DNA of 64,000 nucleotides from a virus: positions 1 to 64,000 of IMG/VR virus record IMGVR_UViG_3300022916_000011; one strand, 5' to 3'. The position numbers were made by a program, and so were the translations under genes. Below are positions 951-49,926 of this stretch, one piece after another. Within the stretch, counting starts at the first letter, position 1. Each line of letters opens with the position of its first letter. The notes under the pieces are model-generated. The model worked only from the letters and a program-made list of their open reading frames with translations. It made no database searches and had not been told where the DNA came from.

Positions 951-1175
951 CTATAGTTTTATTACATCAGTAATGGGGTTGGATCTGGTGAACAATTCAC
1001 CTTGAGAAATTTGACAGGCCTCATAAACAGGTCTGCGATAGCCATTAAATCTTTTAGCATCATCAATTGAGGTTTCAATGGAATTTCTAGCGTCTAGGAT
1101 AACAGTAGCCCTATCACCTAATTCAGCTTGAAATTCCCCTTTCTTGTCTACATGTCCATACTCTACGAAACGCAT
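951..1175 (-). CDS. Hypothetical protein
   Basis: 74-aa ORF with GGAGG RBS. Confidence 0.7.
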   Translation of the reverse strand: MRFVEYGHVDKKGEFQAELGDRATVILDARNSIETSIDDAKRFNGYRRPVYEACQISQGELFTRSNPITDVIKL

Positions 1176-1185
1176 ATTTTCCTCC

Positions 1186-1467
1186 TTATAGTGTTGCGAA
1201 AAATGCTACCACCCTTTTAATAAGATGGACATTCTTAATACTCTTAAATCTGTGGGATTGTGGTGTTCCTTCAATACGATACCAATTATAAAATAATTTG
1301 TAATAGTATTGGATTTTTTCTCGTTCCTTTTCTGTGAAAGTTTCATTGTATTTTCTACGTTTACTTCCATGGTTTTTCTGCTTCCACATCTCTACAATGA
1401 TGGGGGTCTGTAAATCGTCAAGTTCCTTGTTGCCAAGTTCAATCAGAAATATTGGTTTCATTTTCAT
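1186..1467 (-). CDS. Hypothetical protein
   Basis: 93-aa ORF with AAGGAG RBS. Confidence 0.7.
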   Translation of the reverse strand: MKMKPIFLIELGNKELDDLQTPIIVEMWKQKNHGSKRRKYNETFTEKEREKIQYYYKLFYNWYRIEGTPQSHRFKSIKNVHLIKRVVAFFATL

Positions 1468-1565
1468 CTCCTTTCTTAATTAGAGTTTACCCTTCTTGCC
1501 TCCACTAAACGAAATGCTTAGTGAAAATAAGAAAGGTGGGGGAATACCCCCACCTCTGCTATCTC

Positions 1566-2417
1566 TTAATATTTCCGGAGTAAGTTCATAACCTGATCCG
1601 TTTTGGTCATTCTAACAATTGGAGAATCTAAATCCCGTAAATATTGAGTAGAAGCCATTGCTACATCCCAAAGATTAGGGGGTACATTCCCTTTAGTAGT
1701 TTCATTGAGTGAGTACCCAACACCATCCATGGGCAGAGCCAATACCTCTGGTAATTGTTTTTTACCAAAAGGAAGTTTTTCTTGAATCTCAACCCAATCG
1801 GGTGCGGTAAGCTGGCGTTCAGCCCAATGTTTCCAGATACCAGTTTCATCAGCAAATTCCATCATACCGATCTTCATATTCTCCACCATAGCAGAGATTG
1901 AAAGTCCAAGACCGTGTTTCTTTTTATCAGAAAATGCAGACTTTCCAATGGTCAACCCATTAGTACAGACCAAAACAATAGCACCACCCGTAAAGGATGG
2001 TTCCCACATACCGTCATGTGAACTTTTGATTTTAATATTAGGAGTTACCTGTTGACCTTCACGAATGGTAATGGGAGCACACTCATTGAATTTTAATTCA
2101 AAAATGAATTTATTCCCGTCTTGAAGAAGTTGAATGTTTGCTGTGGGAGTACCGTATTCTTCTAGTTTAGCCATAGCTTTCTCAGCATGCCAGATAATTT
2201 CTTCATACTGAAGAATTTCATATTTGCGGTTGGATACATCTGAAGCTACATATGCCAGATGCTCTTCATCCTTGTAGTCAACGATGATTCCCATTTTGCT
2301 TTCTGCACGATGATGTTGCCTACGCCCATACCAAATAGGTTCTTTTCTTGCATAGGGGAAATCTATTTCGGGGTATTTTTCCCTCACTTCTGCCATAATA
2401 TCGTCTACAAATGCCAT
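1566..2417 (-). CDS. DUF932-family phage/plasmid protein
   Basis: Motifs SSHDG and VLVCTNGL, typical of DUF932; first gene after a consensus promoter. Confidence 0.75.
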   Translation of the reverse strand: MAFVDDIMAEVREKYPEIDFPYARKEPIWYGRRQHHRAESKMGIIVDYKDEEHLAYVASDVSNRKYEILQYEEIIWHAEKAMAKLEEYGTPTANIQLLQDGNKFIFELKFNECAPITIREGQQVTPNIKIKSSHDGMWEPSFTGGAIVLVCTNGLTIGKSAFSDKKKHGLGLSISAMVENMKIGMMEFADETGIWKHWAERQLTAPDWVEIQEKLPFGKKQLPEVLALPMDGVGYSLNETTKGNVPPNLWDVAMASTQYLRDLDSPIVRMTKTDQVMNLLRKY

Positions 2418-2452
2418 GTTCGTTCTCCTTTCTCAATTTAGGGTTTAACTAC

Positions 2453-2481
2453 ATTATAATTTTTTTTACTGTAAATGTCAA
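2453..2481 (-). promoter_or_regulatory. Sigma70-type early promoter TTGACA-N17-TATAAT
   Basis: Perfect consensus on minus strand (tgtcaa 2476-2481, attata 2453-2458). Confidence 0.9.
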
Positions 2482-2494
2482 GAGATTAATTCGA

Positions 2495-3280
2495 TTAAAA
2501 GTAGGCACTTTGCCAATCATCTTCTTCATAATCAAATTTACTAAGGTATTTCTCCATTTCGTTCTTCACTTCAATTTTAAAGTCTTTTACTTTGGAGAAG
2601 ATAAATTCTGGTTTATCCTGATTTTTGTAAGATACGTCACACCCCCTTATAATATTTCCTTTACAATTTAAGTAGACTGCTCCTTCACTTATTCTTGTTC
2701 TTTCATAATCGTATTCCTCCAGTTTAAATTTTTCCGGTTTAATTTCTTTCATCCCCCGCCCATCAGCCCTACCTTGATTGATAAGACTGAATCCCTCATC
2801 AATTTTACCAATTGTATTCCTTTTGTGGATGAAATCTTCCATACCACATTCGTACTCAAAATATTCTTCTAGCCTATAAAAGAAGTTCATATTATCATCA
2901 TGGAATTGATCATTGGAAACATCAACGCTGGAGATTTCATTCTCAGAACAGAATTGATACCAGGAGTACAGTATGTCACAAAATGCTCGCCTATATTGCT
3001 TCCCGTTAGTAGCAACGTAAAAGTTACCCACTTCAATATTCTTCCATCTACAGATTCCTAATGTTTCCTCCATAACTTTAATTCCCGATGGTAAGGAAGG
3101 TTCACCCCCTGTAAATGTAATTGAATTGATATAGTCCACTTGAGAAAAAATAGACCCTAAATATTTTCTGTCCATAGTAAGTTTCTGTGGTTCACCACGT
3201 AGGCAATGCGCACATTGCATATTGCAGTGCCTCGTTGTTTCTATTACCAGATTATCCAACTGTAACATTTTTACCTCCAT
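2495..3280 (-). CDS. Radical SAM protein
   Basis: CNMQCAHC (CxxxCxxC), TGGEP and ATNG motifs. Confidence 0.9.
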   Translation of the reverse strand: MEVKMLQLDNLVIETTRHCNMQCAHCLRGEPQKLTMDRKYLGSIFSQVDYINSITFTGGEPSLPSGIKVMEETLGICRWKNIEVGNFYVATNGKQYRRAFCDILYSWYQFCSENEISSVDVSNDQFHDDNMNFFYRLEEYFEYECGMEDFIHKRNTIGKIDEGFSLINQGRADGRGMKEIKPEKFKLEEYDYERTRISEGAVYLNCKGNIIRGCDVSYKNQDKPEFIFSKVKDFKIEVKNEMEKYLSKFDYEEDDWQSAYF

Positions 3281-3554
3281 TGTCCCAATTTCTATCTAGC
3301 CTATTCAAGAGTTCGTAATACTCATTATAATAAACTTCTTCAGGATCATCACTGTCTGGATAGGTAAATGCTGCAATAGCATTATCTGAATTCATTATTC
3401 CGGGGTTGGGTGCATTCTCCCAACGAAGAATAACGATTTTTTCTCCATCTTTCGTTATCCATTCACCGAGAAGATCACAGAAAAGGTTTCTCCTTGTAAT
3501 CTTCAATCTTTCTTTCCTATCATGTTCTTTCTTCATTTCTAAAAAATCTGGCAT
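3252..3554 (-). CDS. Hypothetical protein
   Basis: 100-aa ORF with AAGGAG RBS. Confidence 0.65.
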   Translation of the reverse strand: MPDFLEMKKEHDRKERLKITRRNLFCDLLGEWITKDGEKIVILRWENAPNPGIMNSDNAIAAFTYPDSDDPEEVYYNEYYELLNRLDRNWDNGGKNVTVG

Positions 3555-3632
3555 AATACACTCCTTTTATTAGGGTTTTAAGTGAATTCCAACATATAGT
3601 GGGGGTATAAGTTACCCCCACCTATTTTGGAA

Positions 3633-4334
3633 TTAACCTATTGCTGCCATCTTCTGAGATCCATTAACACCCTTGCTAAGACTGACACGATCGCCAGCAG
3701 CTTGACCTTTAGCCCATACTGACCTGTTTTCAGTAATAACTGGACGATTACCTGTTCTAAGTCTCGGAAAGGTTTTCTTAGTGAATGCTTCCGTAGCTGC
3801 TTTCTTCACAGTTACCAAAGCCAAAGAATCAGAGGTTTTAATCTCCTGTCTTTTCACATACAACATTTCCATTCTGTGAATAATTCTGTTGACCATTGAA
3901 TGAGCAAAGGTATTCCTTATTGATCTACCCATCCCTTGATTTTCAACATCAGTAATTCTACCAACAGTCCTTCTAAGATACTTTGTGAAGTAGATCGTCA
4001 TATCCACATCTGATTTAGTACCCAAAAATGCGAGGTGCCAACCATCTCTTTTGGTATATCGGACGGTTTTAACATCGAAACACTCTCCTATACCATTAGC
4101 TAGAACAGCTTCCCACATAACTCCTCTCATTGTTCTACCTTTAAGATCCATTCTGATCATTGAAGCTGTAACTTCTTCCTCGGTTTGACAATCGCCAAGG
4201 GTTAGAGAGTGTTTTTCCATAAAAAATGCTGCTTTTTCCATTGCCAATGTAGCTTCTGCTTCATTGGGTGAAGTCGCCAGTCTCATCAACTTCTGGATTT
4301 TATCCAAGACTTGATCTCTTGTCATTTCTGCCAT
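3633..4334 (-). CDS. DUF2786-domain protein
   Basis: N-terminal LDKIQKLMRLATSPNEAEATLAMEKA signature; C-terminal GQAAGDRVSL. Confidence 0.85.
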   Translation of the reverse strand: MAEMTRDQVLDKIQKLMRLATSPNEAEATLAMEKAAFFMEKHSLTLGDCQTEEEVTASMIRMDLKGRTMRGVMWEAVLANGIGECFDVKTVRYTKRDGWHLAFLGTKSDVDMTIYFTKYLRRTVGRITDVENQGMGRSIRNTFAHSMVNRIIHRMEMLYVKRQEIKTSDSLALVTVKKAATEAFTKKTFPRLRTGNRPVITENRSVWAKGQAAGDRVSLSKGVNGSQKMAAIG

Positions 4335-44876: not shown

Positions 44877-46562
44877 CTATCTGTCTGTATCTTCACCTCT
44901 ACCATCCTTACCGTCAAGTTGTCGGGAAGAACCTTTTACATTATCAGTAATACCTTTAGCAGAAGGATCAGCATCAGATTTGCCAGGATCTCTATCTCTG
45001 TCTCTAGCATTATTTTGTCTAATATCTTTTGTGGATCTATTTTCAGTTTGATCGTTTGCTTTTAAAATATCTTCTTCTGTTAATTTATCAATGGCATTGC
45101 GAATATCTACCATTAAGGCGTCAGGTAAATCCGGTAATGCTCTTTTAGCTACTGTTTTCATTAATTCTTTTTTGAAGGTAAGTTCAGGGATTATACGATC
45201 AGCCATAATAGCATTTTCAAGACTTTGACTGAGATCATCAATGCTGAAGTCAGTGGACCTTGTAATTTCCACCTTATTAAAATCTTTCTCTTTATTTTGC
45301 CATTTCAACCAATATTTAATAATACCTAGTTCTGTCTCTGTGAGATTAGAGCTTTTCTTACCTAGTACAAGACCTAGTTGTTGAAATTCATAGCGCATTG
45401 CTACCCCTGATCTAGCAGCACTACCACTAGTTCTTTGGGCATTAAGACCAGACAGATGAGCCAATTGAAATGTTTCTTCTACCTTTTTGTCTACCCAATT
45501 TAGAATAGCATCTATAGGTTCATTTACTTCTGCATTTAGCCAATCTGGTTTTCCTGCTTCACCTAGAGATGGATCAAATTCAAGAATAGCCGTAACTCCA
45601 GCTTCATTATTAATCTCTTCACCTTCTCTAGCCATAGGACGTCTTGCTTGAGGGAAACCAGCAAATTTGATAACTTCTTCTCCATAAGAAACATTTCGAA
45701 TAATACTAGCCGTAATTCTTGATATTTCTTTAATATCAGATTCACCAATGTAAGGATCTTCAATATTCTTGATATTTTGAAACCACAGGAAAGGTATTTC
45801 ATTTAATGGATTAGGTCCTTCTGAAACCATAATTGGATCTTCTGTGGAGGTTAATGCACTTACAATTTTACCTGGATGTTGTGCATATTTATTATCTCCA
45901 GGTTTAGGTTCATAATCTGAAGTATCTGTATGTTTATGAATCCTCATAGTGGTTCCACCAGAAGTTTCAGGAATAGTCCATATTTCCCATTTATCTGGCC
46001 ACCAAAGTAAATACCTATTATCGTAATCAAACAATTTGAGATAGGTCAGTTGAGGTCTATTAGTGCGTTCATCCCTTTCATGTTCCCAATCTAATATATT
46101 AGGTAATGTAAAAGTAGAGCAATAAGGATAAATGCCATCAGCTACATCTTCTTTGAGGATTTGATTTGTACTTGTAGGTTTGTCAACTAAGATTCCTACT
46201 GCACCGTATATACCTGCTAATTTTTGAGATTCATTCAAATACACATCAAAATTGGTTCCATATAGATCAGCATCTTTGGTAAATAACTTCCACAATTTAT
46301 CATCTACTAAAGGACCTAATTCTCTCAAAGCAGGCTTTTCTGTAAGGTAGAAATTAAATAGATCAATAACGATACTGGAGTAATTGAAACAGGTTCCTTC
46401 ATCTTGTCTAGATTTCCAATTTTTTTGGGATTCTCTCATATGTTTTTGTAATGCAAAATTTATAAAACGAGTACCTCCAGAATAAGCTAGGCCCCAAAAT
46501 GTCCAATCGCTTATCATATCTGCATAAGTGTCGTGGGTTTCTAATAGTTGTTCTACATCCAT
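44877..46562 (-). CDS. Portal protein
   Basis: Follows TerL; NPLNEIPF, SGVAMRYEF motifs of SPP1-gp6-like portals. Confidence 0.85.
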   Translation of the reverse strand: MDVEQLLETHDTYADMISDWTFWGLAYSGGTRFINFALQKHMRESQKNWKSRQDEGTCFNYSSIVIDLFNFYLTEKPALRELGPLVDDKLWKLFTKDADLYGTNFDVYLNESQKLAGIYGAVGILVDKPTSTNQILKEDVADGIYPYCSTFTLPNILDWEHERDERTNRPQLTYLKLFDYDNRYLLWWPDKWEIWTIPETSGGTTMRIHKHTDTSDYEPKPGDNKYAQHPGKIVSALTSTEDPIMVSEGPNPLNEIPFLWFQNIKNIEDPYIGESDIKEISRITASIIRNVSYGEEVIKFAGFPQARRPMAREGEEINNEAGVTAILEFDPSLGEAGKPDWLNAEVNEPIDAILNWVDKKVEETFQLAHLSGLNAQRTSGSAARSGVAMRYEFQQLGLVLGKKSSNLTETELGIIKYWLKWQNKEKDFNKVEITRSTDFSIDDLSQSLENAIMADRIIPELTFKKELMKTVAKRALPDLPDALMVDIRNAIDKLTEEDILKANDQTENRSTKDIRQNNARDRDRDPGKSDADPSAKGITDNVKGSSRQLDGKDGRGEDTDR

Positions 46563-46574
46563 TTTATTTCTCCT

Positions 46575-49121
46575 TTATTTCCAATAAAGTTTTGATGGTG
46601 GCCTTCTTACGTATCTCGGTTTATTCACCCATTGTAAAAATTGACTTGTTGAGTCTACCATATCGTCATGTTCAGTAGAAGGGAAATTTGTTATTTGATA
46701 TTCATAATCAGATAACCAATGGGCTTCTTCTGGAAGAAATACCTTTCCAGCTTCAAATAAAGTTGTTACTGCGTCAAAGCGTAATATTTTGTTCACATTG
46801 TTGGTACTGATGGGGATAATGGGAATTCTAGTTTCCATTTTTATATCTTGAATTAAAGATTGCCCACTAGCTCTATCTTCAACCAATACCCCTGTGGCTT
46901 TGTGAACTTCGTATAGTTGTAAAAATCTTTTTTTAAGTTCTGGAAATTCCATTCTTTTGTTTATTACATCTAATAGGTAATATCCATTTTCACCTATACC
47001 CCACACTGTGGCAGCAGATGGGTCACTTATTTCTGAATCTTTAAATGCCGTATCCCAACTTATAATGATTCTATTTAGTTTTGGTAAAATTGAATATCTT
47101 TTTAACCAGGCATGTTTTACCATACCCCCTTCTCTACTTACTGGATGCTGTTGGTACTGAGCATTCCATTCGTAAGAACCAATAATTTTTTCTATAGCAT
47201 TTAAAGATGACTGAGGATAAGCTTCTGGCCATAGAGCATCCCCAACTTCTCTACCGAGAATATCATTCTCTTCTGCAATAGCTTTGAGATCAAGAATTGT
47301 CCAATCTTCTTGTGGATGTTCCTTTAGTACATAACCGCTAAGATCATTTTCATGCCATCTAGTATTAATCATAATAATTCTATTATCAGGCATCAATCTA
47401 GTATAAGCAACTGCTCTGTACCATTCGTGGAGGTCTTTTCGAATTGTTTGGGATTCTATTTCTTTTCTGGATTTGATAGGATCATCTATAATAAAGCAGT
47501 TGTGGGTTAAAATGAGATAGTTATCGTTAGTTATCGTTCTTTTATTGTGTACTGCATGTGCAAAGAAGTTACTTGTTCCCTCAACTTGGATGTCATAGAC
47601 TGGGATCGGATCTGTGCTAATTCTTTCAATTTGGGAAATGGTGTCCTCTTTGATTTGTGATGAATTATATGACAACTGAGACATAGTGTTATTAGATTTT
47701 CTGGTGCATTGTTGGTCTTGTCCCCATCTATGTGATGTAGTAAGAGAGTTTCCCTCTTTGTTTTGTTCCCTGTATTGCCATCTACCGTCGATACTTTCCC
47801 CATTTGAATATTGCATACAGCGCATTGATTGTTGTCCCTCTCTAGTATTAAAGGGCGCATTTTGCGTGATATGATGTTGTATTCTTTCCCATGCCGATAA
47901 TTGGAATTCTGTGTTCCAAGCATTTTCTGAGAATGTGTTTGATTGGCACATTCTCGGGAGCAATGCTGCGTTAAGTAGCTTAATGGGGAAAATGTTTTCC
48001 CACATTGAGGACATATTATTTTTGGCATTTTCCTTCGCTCTCTGGACTCTTTTCTGCATTTGTTGGAACAGAATTTTCGTATAGGCGTTTCTGTTGTTTT
48101 TCCGCAGATTACACATTTTCTTTTGTTTTTTACAGCGTGATGTTTTTGGGAACATTCTATTGAACAATACATATCTTTGTGCTTTCTTTTTATTGCTGCA
48201 CGTACTTCGTAATTCTTTTTTACTACTTCTTTTCCGCACCATGCACATGTTATTTTTGTATCGGCTTTTCGAAGCATATGATAGCAGGATCTGCAATGAA
48301 GAGAGCCTATAGTTTTTCTTTTTCCACACTCCGGACATACTTGGGATTTTCTTGTCTGTAATAATTGTGATGGTGTCTCCCTTTTGTATATCTTTCGTTT
48401 TAATGTAACCTTGTCCCTGTATGAAGAATTTGTGCTCTCCAGTTGCTCTAATGTAATTCCCTGAATTTGTGGTGATTTTGTAGAGTTCATTTGTAATTTC
48501 CTTTCTAGCAGCTATTATTTTTTTGTATACTAAAGTGTTACTAGTATGGTCTAAAGATAATATTTTTATTTCTTTGCTAGATAATAACTCTACGAGGGTA
48601 GCAATGTCAACAGTTTTTATTGAAGAATCAATCTTCACATTTAGCATTGTTTCTGCTGGAAGACAATTTGCTCCACGTCCAGTGGCACCACCACCAACAC
48701 TGATGTTAAAGTACTCTCCACCCTGAATAGTAGAGAAATGAGACACAGATTTTGAATCTGAAGAAATAGCACAACCAGGAAATATTTCTCTATGTAAATC
48801 TGAGTCAACTAAATTTCTGACTTTTCGTCCAACATCGTCACCACGTTTCTGATTGTAAGTTGACCATATAATTTGCCAATCTGGATTTCTACCTATGAAC
48901 CAGGCAGGAAACATTTCAGATGCTAATAAAGTTTTACCATGCCTAGGGGGAGAAAAAATTAGTAACCTTCTAATATCTCCTCTCTCTACAGCTTCCAGAT
49001 ACATGGCAATCATTTCATGCATTAACCCAATTTTATATTTTGGGTACATTAAACGTGTGAAGCTTAAAAGTTTAGAGTGCGCAAATTGTTCGTTGGAAGG
49101 ACCTTTTTTAATTGCCATCAT
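46575..49121 (-). CDS. terL: Terminase large subunit with intein (459 aa after splicing)
   Basis: PPRHGKT Walker A, GRGAN|CFIIDDP Walker B, TRWHENDL, SWDTA, HDDMVDS nuclease motifs. Confidence 0.95.
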   Translation of the reverse strand: MMAIKKGPSNEQFAHSKLLSFTRLMYPKYKIGLMHEMIAMYLEAVERGDIRRLLIFSPPRHGKTLLASEMFPAWFIGRNPDWQIIWSTYNQKRGDDVGRKVRNLVDSDLHREIFPGCAISSDSKSVSHFSTIQGGEYFNISVGGGATGRGANCLPAETMLNVKIDSSIKTVDIATLVELLSSKEIKILSLDHTSNTLVYKKIIAARKEITNELYKITTNSGNYIRATGEHKFFIQGQGYIKTKDIQKGDTITIITDKKIPSMSGVWKKKNYRLSSLQILLSYASKSRYKNNMCMVRKRSSKKELRSTCSNKKKAQRYVLFNRMFPKTSRCKKQKKMCNLRKNNRNAYTKILFQQMQKRVQRAKENAKNNMSSMWENIFPIKLLNAALLPRMCQSNTFSENAWNTEFQLSAWERIQHHITQNAPFNTREGQQSMRCMQYSNGESIDGRWQYREQNKEGNSLTTSHRWGQDQQCTRKSNNTMSQLSYNSSQIKEDTISQIERISTDPIPVYDIQVEGTSNFFAHAVHNKRTITNDNYLILTHNCFIIDDPIKSRKEIESQTIRKDLHEWYRAVAYTRLMPDNRIIMINTRWHENDLSGYVLKEHPQEDWTILDLKAIAEENDILGREVGDALWPEAYPQSSLNAIEKIIGSYEWNAQYQQHPVSREGGMVKHAWLKRYSILPKLNRIIISWDTAFKDSEISDPSAATVWGIGENGYYLLDVINKRMEFPELKKRFLQLYEVHKATGVLVEDRASGQSLIQDIKMETRIPIIPISTNNVNKILRFDAVTTLFEAGKVFLPEEAHWLSDYEYQITNFPSTEHDDMVDSTSQFLQWVNKPRYVRRPPSKLYWK
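47499..48665 (-). mobile_element. Intein (389 aa) inserted immediately before TerL Walker B
   Basis: Block A CLPAET, block B TGEHKF, block F VYDIQVEGTSNFFA, terminal THN followed by Cys +1. Confidence 0.92.
47531..48490 (-). CDS. Zinc-finger-repeat HNH endonuclease overprinted in the +1 frame inside the intein
   Basis: Repeated CxxCGK...(Y/F)CSxxC fingers, ILERDNNQCAVC, HHIDGDKTNNAPENLITLCLSCH; AAAGGA SD 8 nt before ATG 48490. Confidence 0.85.
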   Translation of the reverse strand: MNSTKSPQIQGITLEQLESTNSSYRDKVTLKRKIYKRETPSQLLQTRKSQVCPECGKRKTIGSLHCRSCYHMLRKADTKITCAWCGKEVVKKNYEVRAAIKRKHKDMYCSIECSQKHHAVKNKRKCVICGKTTETPIRKFCSNKCRKESRERRKMPKIICPQCGKTFSPLSYLTQHCSRECANQTHSQKMLGTQNSNYRHGKEYNIISRKMRPLILERDNNQCAVCNIQMGKVSTVDGNTGNKTKRETLLLHHIDGDKTNNAPENLITLCLSCHIIHHKSKRTPFPKLKELAQIRSQSMTSKLREQVTSLHMQYTIKER

Positions 49122-49926
49122 CTCCCTTTCGTCCTACCAATTCACCTTCAAGAATGTCATCTCCACCACCTAATTTTTCAGCTAATAATTTGCCACCTGG
49201 AGTATTCATTAATTTTGAAGGTGTGATTTGTGCAGCTTCTATGATGGCGTCTGTCTCCTCTTTTGAATGGACAACATCTATTCTTCCTCTGATCATATTT
49301 TTATTTTCATTGTAAGTATCTGGAAGTAAACATCTGGCAGCAAAAATGATTGCTGCTGTGTCCCCCGATGCCACTTTTGCTAATAGACTGGATTCTACTA
49401 AGTCCTTTTTCTCCTCATCAACAGATAACATTTCATCTTTGAACGACTCATCTATCTCCATCCATTTTACAACTTTACCCCTAGATATACCGACTTCATT
49501 ACATGCTTCTGTCAAGTTGAAACTGGAATATCTGTAAGCTTCTTTTAGAGCATCTTTCAGAACCCTTTCATCTTCGTTGTTAGTTATGATAACCTTTTTG
49601 TCTATTTCCTTTTCCTCAGTTACCATTGTTGGTTTGTAGAATGCGGCAGGATCTTTCTGTTTTCTTATATTGTAATATTGCTCTTTGAACATGGGATCAT
49701 CTTCAGCCCATGTGTAAATAGTATTTTGAGATTTGACTCCGGCTTTCTTCAAGGCTTTAGAAATGGTCATTCCCTTACTTTTGTAGTGATATAGGAAATT
49801 TCTTTTCTTAGTCCTTATCTCTATTATATCTTCTTCAGATAATTCTTTTTTAGGTTTAATGCGTTTTTTAAGCCGTTTTCTATTGGAAAATGCTTTATCA
49901 TTTGTATCAATTCTTTTAGTTCCCAT
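49108..49926 (-). CDS. Terminase small subunit-like HTH protein
   Basis: Two HTH-like repeats, C-terminal GDTAAIIFAAR; overlaps the TerL start. Confidence 0.7.
   Translation of the reverse strand: MGTKRIDTNDKAFSNRKRLKKRIKPKKELSEEDIIEIRTKKRNFLYHYKSKGMTISKALKKAGVKSQNTIYTWAEDDPMFKEQYYNIRKQKDPAAFYKPTMVTEEKEIDKKVIITNNEDERVLKDALKEAYRYSSFNLTEACNEVGISRGKVVKWMEIDESFKDEMLSVDEEKKDLVESSLLAKVASGDTAAIIFAARCLLPDTYNENKNMIRGRIDVVHSKEETDAIIEAAQITPSKLMNTPGGKLLAEKLGGGDDILEGELVGRKGDDGN

What the first reader, a model, noticed from the sequence alone, without database searches (positions are those of the whole stretch)
47499..48665. Dual-coding intein: the homing endonuclease is encoded in the +1 frame rather than inside the intein polypeptide
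Seen in sequence: TerL has a 389-aa intein with intact splicing blocks A, B, F and G. Its ~245-aa centre reads as composition-biased sequence rich in M/Q/R/S with no LAGLIDADG or HNH motif. The same DNA in the +1 frame is a clean 319-aa Zn-finger + HNH endonuclease (47531-48490) with its own SD (AAAGGA, 8 nt before ATG) hidden in the intein codons ARKEITNE. Both frames are stop-free over 960 nt, and the HNH ORF overlaps splicing blocks B and F. Established: canonical inteins carry the endonuclease in frame. Inference: this is an overprinted mobile element in which an HNH gene sits in the intein loop and is translated separately, while the intein excises the off-frame junk so the essential terminase stays functional. 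The odd extension NFFA-HAVHNKRTITNDNY-LILTHN coincides with the HNH stop.
Basis: partly seen in the sequence, partly recalled or inferred. Interest (0 to 1): 0.9.

Follow-up and report, generated by a model that had tools for sequence, protein, structure and literature searches.

The report
Terminase intein with overlapping HNH gene
A marine phage's DNA-packaging gene carries a self-splicing protein insert (an intein), and a complete HNH nuclease gene is written one base out of step inside it; the layout is real and kept by selection, but it was noted in Brucella phages in 2012-2015 and described as a class in 2025-26.

Summary
terL (46575-49121, minus strand, 848 aa) contains a 389-aa class-1 intein (47499-48665). 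A 319-aa zinc-ribbon plus HNH ORF (47531-48490) lies in its +1 frame. Both frames are stop-free, whereas synonymous shuffles of the HNH codons give about 16 stops in the terL frame (0 of 5000 give none). Independent seawater assemblies carry the identical sequence without indels, so compensating assembly errors are excluded.

The arrangement is not unique. In 22 other usable loci (Brucella phage Tb, Gordonia phage Clown, Synechococcus phage S-EIVl, Ralstonia phage RS-CA1 and 18 IMG/VR contigs) a homologous HNH sits at the same terL site, always in the +1 frame. In 20 of them the terL frame is stop-purged. In 2 low-GC contigs it is full of stops, giving a split-intein "fractured gene" form.

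Wobble-position composition and conservation switch to the HNH frame in the centre and back to the terL frame over the splicing blocks. Structure models give a complete HINT fold plus an unstructured centre, and a confident HNH protein.

Splicing, separate HNH translation and homing are inferred, not shown. The homologous brucellaphage element was called out of frame in 2015, and out-of-frame intein endonucleases were described in 2025-26 preprints. This scan has also found the layout before on other DNA. It is a new member of a known kind.

The parts
46575..49121 (-). terL (large terminase subunit) precursor ORF, 848 aa, Terminase_6 type, interrupted by the intein
   Evidence: ORF. (Pfam Terminase_6N and Terminase_6C). 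(PHROG 38 terminase large subunit, E=1e-97). The neighbours are terS (49108-49926) and portal (44877-46562).
47499..48665 (-). Class-1 intein, 389 aa, from Cys1 (CLPAETM) to the terminal Asn (LILTHN), followed by the +1 Cys of CFIIDDP
   Evidence: The AF2 model superposes on mini-inteins at Z=20, rmsd 1.6 A over 140 residues.
48351..48665 (-). Intein N-terminal splicing part (residues 1-105, blocks A, N2 and B)
   Evidence: pLDDT is above 90 for residues 1-105. The part is conserved in alignment A4. The least conserved codon position is terL position 3.
47655..48350 (-). Intein centre in the terL frame (residues about 106-337): open but unconstrained linker rich in K, N, S, R, Q and M. The same DNA is the folded core of the HNH gene
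   Evidence: pLDDT is 34-58. No stops, against about 16 expected. The wobble-like position is terL position 1, which is HNH position 3.
47499..47654 (-). Intein C-terminal splicing part (residues 338-389, blocks F and G), with a loop extension of about 12-14 aa that only this window has
   Evidence: pLDDT is above 90 except in the loop, where it is about 72. See also alignment A4.
47531..48490 (-). Nested +1-frame ORF, 319 aa: a disordered N-terminal 45 aa overprinted on intein block B, then several CxxC zinc ribbons and a C-terminal HNH motif (HHIDGDKTNNAPENLITLCLSCH), with a tail overprinted on block F
   Evidence: PHROG 1271 HNH endonuclease, E=1e-31. 72 cluster representatives at E<1e-30. 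Invariant Cys, His and Asn columns. AF2 mean pLDDT is 80, with residues 50-315 confident. The top fold hits are HNH nucleases, but weak.
48491..48504 (-). Shine-Dalgarno-like AAAGGA plus an 8-nt spacer ahead of the HNH ATG, embedded in the intein codons R-K-E-I-T-N
   Evidence: duplex with the anti-SD -5.6 kcal/mol. The site is unpaired in the local RNA fold. The same ATG position (in the N-E codons) and an upstream AAGGAG occur in relative L008.
47531..47560 (-). 10-nt tandem repeat (ACGATAACTA x2 on the coding strand) in the loop extension. The HNH stop codon TAA lies in the first copy

Best explanation
This is a homing-type intein in the phage large-terminase gene. Its endonuclease is a separate gene overprinted in the +1 frame of the intein's central loop.

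**Proposed mechanism**
- Ribosomes translating terL read straight through the centre in the terL frame. They produce an unstructured linker of about 230 aa.
- The N-terminal 105 and C-terminal 52 intein residues fold into a normal HINT domain. This domain splices out the whole 389-aa insert and joins ...GRGAN to CFIIDDP..., restoring the ATPase just ahead of its Walker-B-like motif.
- Other ribosomes start independently at the internal ATG (48490), 8 nt after AAAGGA. They make a free HNH nuclease of about 37 kDa with several zinc ribbons.
- By analogy with other intein and free-standing homing endonucleases, this nuclease cuts intein-less terL alleles in co-infecting phages, and the whole element is copied in.

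**Selection**
- Selection on the essential terL keeps the centre free of stops in the terL frame.
- Selection on the element's spread keeps the HNH protein intact.

**Shown here:** both frames are open beyond chance; each frame has its own selection signature; the HINT fold is complete; HNH homology is clear; the +1 layout is conserved across the family; a split form exists.

**Inferred:** splicing, internal initiation, nuclease activity and homing.
For: **Openness beyond chance**
- The window gives 0 of 5000 shuffles without stops, in either direction.
- In 21 loci the terL frame has 0 stops across the HNH span, where synonymous permutation predicts 4-19 (P<=0.014 for each locus).

**Family conservation**
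- All 22 other usable loci with a strong HNH hit have it between the terL N- and C-exteins at the same junctions (G-x-N|C ... LVHN|C-h-h-DDP). The HNH is always in the +1 frame.
- HNH proteins are 34-45% identical, with invariant Cys, His and Asn residues.

**Which frame is selected**
- The GC extreme sits at terL codon position 3 in the exteins but at terL position 1 (HNH position 3) in the centre. L009, for example, gives 0.88 and 0.94 in the exteins against 0.82 at position 1 in the centre. The window gives 0.25 and 0.23 against 0.33.
- The least conserved codon position is HNH position 3 in the centre (0.34, against 0.47 and 0.50). Over blocks B and F it is terL position 3.

**Structure**
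- The intein model has pLDDT above 90 for residues 1-105 and 338-389 and 34-58 in between. It superposes on the NrdJ-1 and NpuDnaB mini-inteins at Z=20, rmsd 1.6-1.7 A.
- The HNH model has mean pLDDT 80 with a disordered overprinted N-terminus.

**Separate translation**
- SD plus ATG are present and unpaired.
- In the fractured relatives L020 and L026 the same HNH is a stand-alone ORF with SD plus ATG directly after the N-fragment stop.

**Not an artefact**
- Contigs from three other seawater runs are identical, with no gaps.
Against: - No direct evidence of splicing, of HNH translation or of cleavage.
- No close intein-less terL allele was found. The best terL relatives in IMG/VR are about 30% identical, so recent homing cannot be shown.
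- HNH and extein identities correlate across the family (r=0.65). That fits long vertical co-inheritance as well as it fits mobility.
- The Pfam HNH hits are below the curated cut-offs. Foldseek matches to HNH nucleases are weak (best E=0.017).
- The 12-14 aa loop extension next to block G occurs only in this window, and its effect on splicing is unknown.
- HNH proteins next to terminase genes can also act in packaging (Kala 2014, as cited in PMC4422536), so homing is not the only possible role.
Confidence: 0.8

Rival explanations
1. Assembly or sequencing artefact. Two compensating indels have pushed an ordinary in-frame HNH domain out of frame, so the true intein is canonical.
For: A canonical reading needs only two frame switches, one after block B and one before block F. 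Some metagenomic proteins (P0013, P0099, P0101) do show terL-to-HNH frame switches.
Against: - If the true frame in the centre were the HNH frame, the terL frame there should carry about 16-38 stops. It has none.
- Independent contigs from three other runs are identical without gaps.
- The same +1 offset with an open terL frame recurs in 20 other loci, including isolated and sequenced phages.
Confidence: 0.01
2. Programmed ribosomal frameshifting or transcriptional slippage. The HNH is made as part of the terL/intein polypeptide by a +1 shift, and back, rather than from its own start.
For: An A7 run lies 28 nt upstream of the HNH ATG. One RNA-library contig lacks one A there.
Against: - In the +1 frame the A-run is followed at once by TAA TAG, so slippage there would terminate translation, not fuse the frames.
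- The run is not conserved in relatives.
- The RNA contig has depth 2.5 and may be an error.
- Selection for an open terL frame through the centre is what read-through in the terL frame predicts.
- The split forms express the HNH as a separate ORF.
Confidence: 0.03
3. The HNH ORF is a decaying relic. The intein is effectively a mini-intein with a long junk loop, the HNH frame is open only by inheritance, and the nuclease is no longer made or active.
For: No recent homing is visible: there are no close intein-less alleles, and HNH and extein identities co-vary. The element may be fixed in this lineage.
Against: - At 36% GC a 319-codon ORF would not stay open without selection. The reverse shuffle gives 7-9 stops and never 0.
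- All catalytic and zinc ligands conserved in the family are intact in the window.
- Wobble-position conservation follows the HNH frame.
Confidence: 0.07
4. The nested HNH is kept mainly for a host-phage function, such as a terminase-associated HNH needed for DNA packaging or cos cleavage. Its place inside terL would then reflect functional coupling rather than homing.
For: HNH proteins near terminase genes are widespread packaging factors (Kala 2014, as cited in PMC4422536). The brucellaphage authors raised this idea. The element co-varies with terL.
Against: - The HNH is always inside an intein at one conserved site of terL genes that are otherwise only 14-40% identical. That is the signature of a mobile unit.
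- More distant relatives are free-standing HNH genes elsewhere in halovirus and other genomes.
- Most phages with this type of terL lack the element. The 21 C-extein relatives were fetched by the extein alone and were not checked for the element.
Confidence: 0.08

Closest known systems
Brucellaphage Tb/Pr (Perisivirus) terL intein with a nested HNH gene (NC_019446: F354_gp07 'intein present', F354_gp08 'putative HNH endonuclease'; discussed in Tevdoradze et al. 2015, PMC4422536)
   Same: It is homologous. The HNH is 34.5% identical over 72% of the query. The terL insertion site and splice junctions are the same. The HNH is in the +1 frame, with the terL frame open. [quoted passage not shown]
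   Different: - Different host and habitat: a marine uncultured phage at 36% GC, against about 50% GC for the Brucella podovirus.
- The window's HNH has extra N-terminal zinc ribbons (319 aa against 228 aa).
- The window's intein has a unique loop extension before block G.
- The brucellaphage papers did not analyse selection or the spread of the family.
Non-canonical actinobacteriophage inteins with an out-of-frame, same-strand endonuclease VII-like HEN (Gosselin, Arsenault & Gogarten, bioRxiv 10.1101/2025.01.02.630785)
   Same: The general design is the same: a terL intein whose homing endonuclease is a separate ORF in another frame of the same strand. The in-frame centre is unstructured. The origin is explained by invasion of an intein by a free-standing endonuclease.
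   Different: - A different nuclease family (endonuclease VII-like against multi-zinc-ribbon HNH).
- A different frame ('frame 3' against +1).
- Their supplement lists Clown's terL intein simply as 'HNH'. Here its HNH is +1 out of frame and homologous to the window's.
Cyanobacterial dnaX intein with an out-of-frame LAGLIDADG endonuclease (Gorbalenya 1998; Phillips, DeSimone & Gogarten, bioRxiv 10.64898/2026.09.14.751524)
   Same: An overlapping-frame endonuclease inside an intein. Purifying selection acts on the endonuclease frame, and the extein frame is relaxed in the overlap.
   Different: A cellular host gene (dnaX), a LAGLIDADG nuclease and the +2 frame. It is not homologous.
Fractured genes: split inteins with a free-standing endonuclease gene between the halves (Dassa et al. 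2009, PMC2677866)
   Same: Relatives L020 and L026 have exactly this layout: N-extein plus IntN, then an endonuclease ORF, then IntC plus C-extein. IntN is about 105 aa and IntC about 39 aa. The window is the contiguous counterpart of the same element.
   Different: Dassa's endonucleases were GIY-YIG and Vsr-like, and HNH was only predicted as possible. In the window the terL frame is not broken.
ShiLan-type out-of-frame HNH insertions in phage DNA methylases (Arsenault et al. 2025, PMC11855218)
   Same: A hidden HNH ORF in another frame of an insertion that stays open in the host gene's frame.
   Different: No intein splicing domain is present there, so the insert is thought to stay in the protein as a loop. 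Here a complete HINT domain removes it.

Membership tests
Class-1 intein (HINT domain, protein splicing) | N-terminal Cys/Ser at position 1 and block B T-x-x-H | tested here: met
   Cys1 (CLPAETM) and T75-G-E-H78. C1, T75 and H78 are invariant in the 16-sequence alignment.
Class-1 intein (HINT domain, protein splicing) | C-terminal His-Asn followed by a Cys/Ser/Thr +1 extein residue | tested here: met
   LILTHN|CFIIDDP. N389 is invariant and H388 nearly so.
Class-1 intein (HINT domain, protein splicing) | HINT fold formed by the N- and C-terminal parts | tested here: met
   AF2 pLDDT is above 90 for residues 1-105 and 338-389. Z=20.2 with rmsd 1.6 A over 140 residues to the NrdJ-1 intein, and Z=19.9 to the NpuDnaB intein. 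Pfam Intein_splicing gives E=5e-19, above its cut-off.
Class-1 intein (HINT domain, protein splicing) | Actual protein splicing | not testable with these tools
   Inferred from the intact motifs and from terL being essential.
HNH (beta-beta-alpha-Me) endonuclease | H-N-H catalytic motif with flanking CxxC pairs | tested here: met
   The motif is C223xxC226 ... H252-H253-I-D ... N261 ... N265-L ... C270xxC273-H274 ... H278. All of these are invariant in 20 relatives. PHROG 1271 'HNH endonuclease' gives E=1e-31.
HNH (beta-beta-alpha-Me) endonuclease | Score above the curated Pfam threshold, or a clear structural match | tested here: inconclusive
   Pfam HNH_3 scores 20.2 bits (cut-off 24.8) and HNH scores 16.4 bits (cut-off 21.4). 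The top Foldseek hits are HNH nucleases (ScoMcrA, Cap5, Cas9 HNH), but with E>=0.017.
Out-of-frame (overprinted) homing-endonuclease intein | The endonuclease ORF lies on the same strand in another frame, inside the intein, with the host frame uninterrupted | tested here: met
   The same holds in 20 relatives.
Out-of-frame (overprinted) homing-endonuclease intein | Purifying selection on the endonuclease frame and relaxed selection on the host frame in the overlap | tested here: met
   The codon-position periodicity of GC content and of conservation switches frame in the centre.
Homing endonuclease (mobile element) | Cleaves the empty allele. Sporadic distribution, with the element's phylogeny incongruent with the host gene's | tested here: inconclusive
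   The element is present at one site in terL genes that are only 14-40% identical, from phages of very different hosts. However, HNH and extein identities correlate (r=0.65), and no close empty allele was found. Cleavage is not testable here.
Fractured gene / split intein (Dassa 2009) | The host gene is broken into two ORFs by stops between IntN and IntC | tested here: not met
   The window's terL frame is continuous. The feature is met only by relatives L020 and L026.

The most novel reading that the evidence does not exclude
The overprinted state is not a short-lived intermediate on the way to an in-frame endonuclease domain. It is a single, ancient and evolutionarily stable design.

- All 23 usable loci, spanning HNH identities down to about 30% and phages of Alpha- and Betaproteobacteria, Actinobacteria and Cyanobacteria as well as marine phages, keep the same +1 phase.
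- No in-frame derivative was found.
- The only alternative state seen is the split-intein 'fractured' form, in which stop counts in the terL frame equal the neutral expectation.

This one family would then document both end-states of the Dassa gene-breaking model with a homologous HNH. It would also suggest that an in-frame fusion of this multi-zinc-ribbon HNH is selected against.
Probability: 0.5. Interest if true: 0.6.

Novelty: new member of a known kind. Interest (0 to 1): 0.45.

Why it matters
- **Annotation.** Gene callers that forbid nested same-strand ORFs miss this nuclease. The intein then looks like a 'decaying' or oddly long mini-intein. Clown's record annotates only terL, and a 2025 survey lists its endonuclease without noting the frame.
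- **Biology.** The family is a clean natural example of long-term dual coding in which the two frames are under different kinds of selection: mere openness in one and protein function in the other.
- **Intein evolution.** The family links contiguous and split inteins through one homologous element. This bears on the 'splicing first, endonuclease later' view of intein evolution and on how split inteins arise.
- **Practical use.** The HINT domain tolerates an unstructured insert of about 230 aa. The related natural split pair (IntN about 105 aa, IntC about 39 aa) could be of interest as protein-engineering parts.

Tried and rejected
The genomic context of the ~300-aa database homologs, and of the chimeric proteins P0013, P0099 and P0101, could not be fetched.
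- **Close relatives for a formal frame-specific dN/dS.** The best HNH relative is 45% identical. The best terL C-extein relatives in IMG/VR are about 30% identical. I used codon-position conservation and composition instead.
- **Full-length in-frame terL-intein-HNH fusions.** None of 560-2000 aa reached E<=1e-10 (weak evidence by the tool's own caveat). Only one protein above 560 aa was among the top 150 of the exhaustive search.
- **Population variants.** Laying contigs of four runs gave no SNPs, so there are no population variants to classify. The runs are contigs, so depth and expression cannot be read. The RNA-library contigs cover only 48243-48443 and 48486-48637 and do not show transcription.
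- **Promoter scan.** The number of sigma-70-like sites is not above the shuffle expectation (13 against 13.3). No terminator-like site was found.
- **RNA fold around the HNH start.** There is no significant structure (z=-0.95), so no sign of a regulatory hairpin.
- **Transcriptional slippage at the A7 run as an expression mechanism.** Rejected as a family feature because the run is not conserved.
- **First alignment attempt.** It used wrong frames for Clown and S-EIVl and was redone.
- **Brucella phage EF4 (L007).** It shows frame breaks in many genes, which probably reflects sequence quality, and was left out.
- **The centre as a real domain in the terL frame.** Rejected: low pLDDT, no conservation, and only coiled-coil-like chance fold matches at Z about 6.
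Full report
**What is there**

The window is part of a 77,965-bp IMG/VR viral contig. Its sequence recurs in many seawater metagenomes.

On the minus strand, terS (49108-49926), terL (46575-49121) and portal (44877-46562) form a normal packaging module. TerL is 848 aa because a 389-aa insert sits between ...GRGAN and CFIIDDP..., at 47499-48665.

The insert matches Pfam Intein_splicing above threshold, with the match spanning the whole insert. It has Cys1, block B T75-x-x-H78, block F VYDIQVEGTSNFFA and a terminal His-Asn followed by Cys.

A 319-aa ORF (47531-48490) lies on the same strand in the +1 frame. It carries several CxxC pairs and a C-terminal HHID...NN...NL..LC..CH motif. It hits PHROG 1271 'HNH endonuclease' at E=1e-31. 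Its ATG follows AAAGGA by 8 nt.

**Is it more than chance, or an artefact?**

- Inside terL the +1 frame has 46 stops, but one 327-codon gap lies exactly here. The next largest gap is 56 codons.
- I kept the HNH protein and permuted or resampled its synonymous codons. This gave 16 or 38 stops on average in the terL frame, and never zero in 5000 trials. The reverse test gave 7-9 stops, also never zero.
- Two compensating assembly indels would therefore leave a terL frame littered with stops in the centre. That is not observed.
- Logan contigs from three other seawater runs match 47300-48900 with no differences or gaps wherever they cover it.

**Relatives**

tblastn of the HNH ORF against sequenced phages found it under 'terminase large subunit' in four groups: 41 Brucella phage records, Gordonia phage Clown, Synechococcus phage S-EIVl and Ralstonia phage RS-CA1. 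More distantly it matched free-standing HNH genes of haloviruses and others.

In Brucella phage Tb the two genes are annotated as overlapping: 'intein present' and 'putative HNH endonuclease'.

An exhaustive profile search found 72 cluster representatives at E<1e-30, mostly about 300 aa. A scan of IMG/VR with their alignment gave 19 loci with strong hits.

In the 22 loci outside the window that could be analysed, I found the following:
- The HNH lies between the terL N- and C-extein matches, at the same junctions, always in the +1 frame.
- In 20 of them the terL frame is continuous. It has 0 stops where synonymous permutation predicts 4-19.

Two low-GC contigs (L020, L026) differ. Their terL frame has 39 and 56 stops in the centre, equal to the neutral expectation of 41 and 53. 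Each locus reads as three ORFs:
- an N-fragment of 254 aa ending about 105 aa into the intein;
- the HNH ORF, with SD plus ATG directly after that stop;
- a C-fragment starting at a conserved ATG, giving an IntC of about 39 aa plus the C-extein.

That is the 'fractured gene' or split-intein layout of Dassa et al. 2009 (PMC2677866), here with an HNH.

**Which frame is under what selection**

Composition:
- In the exteins the compositional extreme sits at terL codon position 3.
- In the centre it moves to terL position 1, which is HNH position 3. This holds in both high- and low-GC genomes.
- L009 gives 0.88 and 0.94 at position 3 in the exteins and 0.82 at position 1 in the centre. The window gives 0.25 and 0.23 against 0.33.

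Conservation across the family's codon alignment:
- In the centre the least conserved position is HNH position 3 (0.34, against 0.47 and 0.50).
- Over the parts of the HNH ORF that overlap blocks B and F, the least conserved position is terL position 3.

So three conclusions follow:
- The HNH protein is what is conserved in the centre.
- The intein is what is conserved at the ends.
- The terL frame in the centre is selected only to stay open.

Its product is enriched in K, N, S, R, Q and M and poorly conserved.

**Structure**
- With a 16-sequence alignment, AF2 models intein residues 1-105 and 338-389 at pLDDT above 90 and the centre at 34-58.
- The confident part superposes on mini-inteins and fused split inteins at Z=20 and rmsd 1.6-1.7 A over about 140 residues.
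- The HNH ORF models at mean pLDDT 80. Only the first 45 residues are disordered, and these are the ones overprinted on the intein N-domain.
- Foldseek's top hits are HNH nucleases but weak. Membership in HNH therefore rests on the motif and the PHROG profile.

**How it most likely works**

TerL is translated through the open centre. The HINT domain assembles from its two ends and excises the whole insert. This restores the ATPase next to its Walker-B-like hhhDD motif, which I infer from the motifs SPPRHGKT and FIIDDP. Inteins at terL ATPase motifs are known (PMC5050341).

The HNH is translated separately from its own SD and ATG, which are unpaired in the local fold. It presumably acts as the element's homing nuclease.

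The split relatives show that the HNH functions as an independent gene in this family. Splicing, initiation, cleavage and homing are inferences. Recent mobility is not shown. HNH and extein identities correlate (r=0.65), and no close empty allele was found.

**Features specific to this window**
- The loop between block F (NFFA) and block G (LILTHN) is 12-14 aa longer than in all 15 aligned relatives. It contains a 10-nt tandem repeat (ACGATAACTA x2) and the HNH stop codon. The model keeps YLILTHN as the terminal strand, with the extension as a loop at pLDDT about 72.
- One RNA-library contig lacks one A of an A7 run 28 nt upstream of the HNH ATG. This would end the terL frame at TAA TAG seven codons before the HNH start. 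The contig has depth 2.5 and the run is not conserved in relatives, so I treat it as a curiosity.

**Compared with what is known**
- The closest known thing is the homologous brucellaphage element. Tevdoradze et al. [quoted passage not shown]
- Gosselin, Arsenault and Gogarten (bioRxiv 10.1101/2025.01.02.630785) described the general class for an endonuclease VII-like gene 'in frame 3'.
- Phillips et al. 2026 described it for the dnaX intein.
- Arsenault et al. 2025 described out-of-frame HNH insertions without an intein (PMC11855218).
- The 2025 survey lists Clown's terL intein as 'HNH' rather than out of frame. Here Clown's HNH is clearly +1.
- Earlier agents of this scan reported the same layout on other DNA many times: 39 notes in at least 36 genomes. 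I tested the same points independently on this window.

**Verdict**

It is a new member of a known, recently described kind.

Two points seem under-documented in the literature I could read. One is the breadth of this particular zinc-ribbon HNH terL family with its invariant +1 phase. The other is the presence of homologous split-intein forms whose stop counts are neutral.

Noticed in passing
L020:2508-5153 and L026:2516-5248 (IMGVR_UViG_3300036980_000293, IMGVR_UViG_3300036954_000244): Homologous terL element in fractured, split-intein form. The N-fragment ORF is 254 aa (IntN about 105 aa). A stand-alone +1-phase HNH ORF follows. The C-fragment starts at a conserved ATG (MQRR.VKSIKRK), giving an IntC of about 39 aa. 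The terL-frame stop counts in the centre (39 and 56) equal the neutral expectation (41 and 53).
   Followed up: yes
window 47531-47560 (-): A 10-nt tandem repeat (ACGATAACTA x2) lies inside a 12-14 aa loop extension between intein blocks F and G. Only this window has the extension. The HNH stop codon TAA lies in the first repeat copy.
   Followed up: partly
window 48518-48524 (-): A metatranscriptome contig (run X23, depth 2.5) lacks one A of the A7 run that lies 28 nt upstream of the HNH ATG. The deletion would end the terL frame at TAA TAG seven codons before the HNH start. The run is not conserved in relatives, so this may be an error.
   Followed up: partly
window 48581-48610 (-): The best sigma-70-like match of the 3.9-kb region (TTGACA, 18 nt, TATTAT; 11 of 12) lies inside the intein N-domain coding sequence, about 90 nt upstream of the HNH start. 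The overall number of such sites is not above the shuffle expectation.
   Followed up: no
proteins P0013 (498 aa), P0099 (521 aa), P0101 (605 aa): In these metagenomic proteins a terL N-extein plus the intein N-part runs in one frame into the HNH and ends at the HNH stop, with the frame switch at a different point in each. They are frameshift variants or sequencing errors. P0101 also carries a LAGLIDADG intein remnant upstream. Their context could not be fetched.
   Followed up: partly
L002 (Gordonia phage Clown NC_055867) 1115-3874: Clown's record annotates only terL over this region. A 2025 intein survey lists its endonuclease type as 'HNH' rather than out of frame. The HNH is in fact in the +1 frame (about 1884-2822 of the locus) and is homologous to the window's.
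   Followed up: yes
L007 (Brucella phage EF4 MT002975): terL, terS and the GcrA-like gene are each annotated in several pieces, and the HNH match is split over two frames. This probably reflects sequence quality in the record rather than biology.
   Followed up: no
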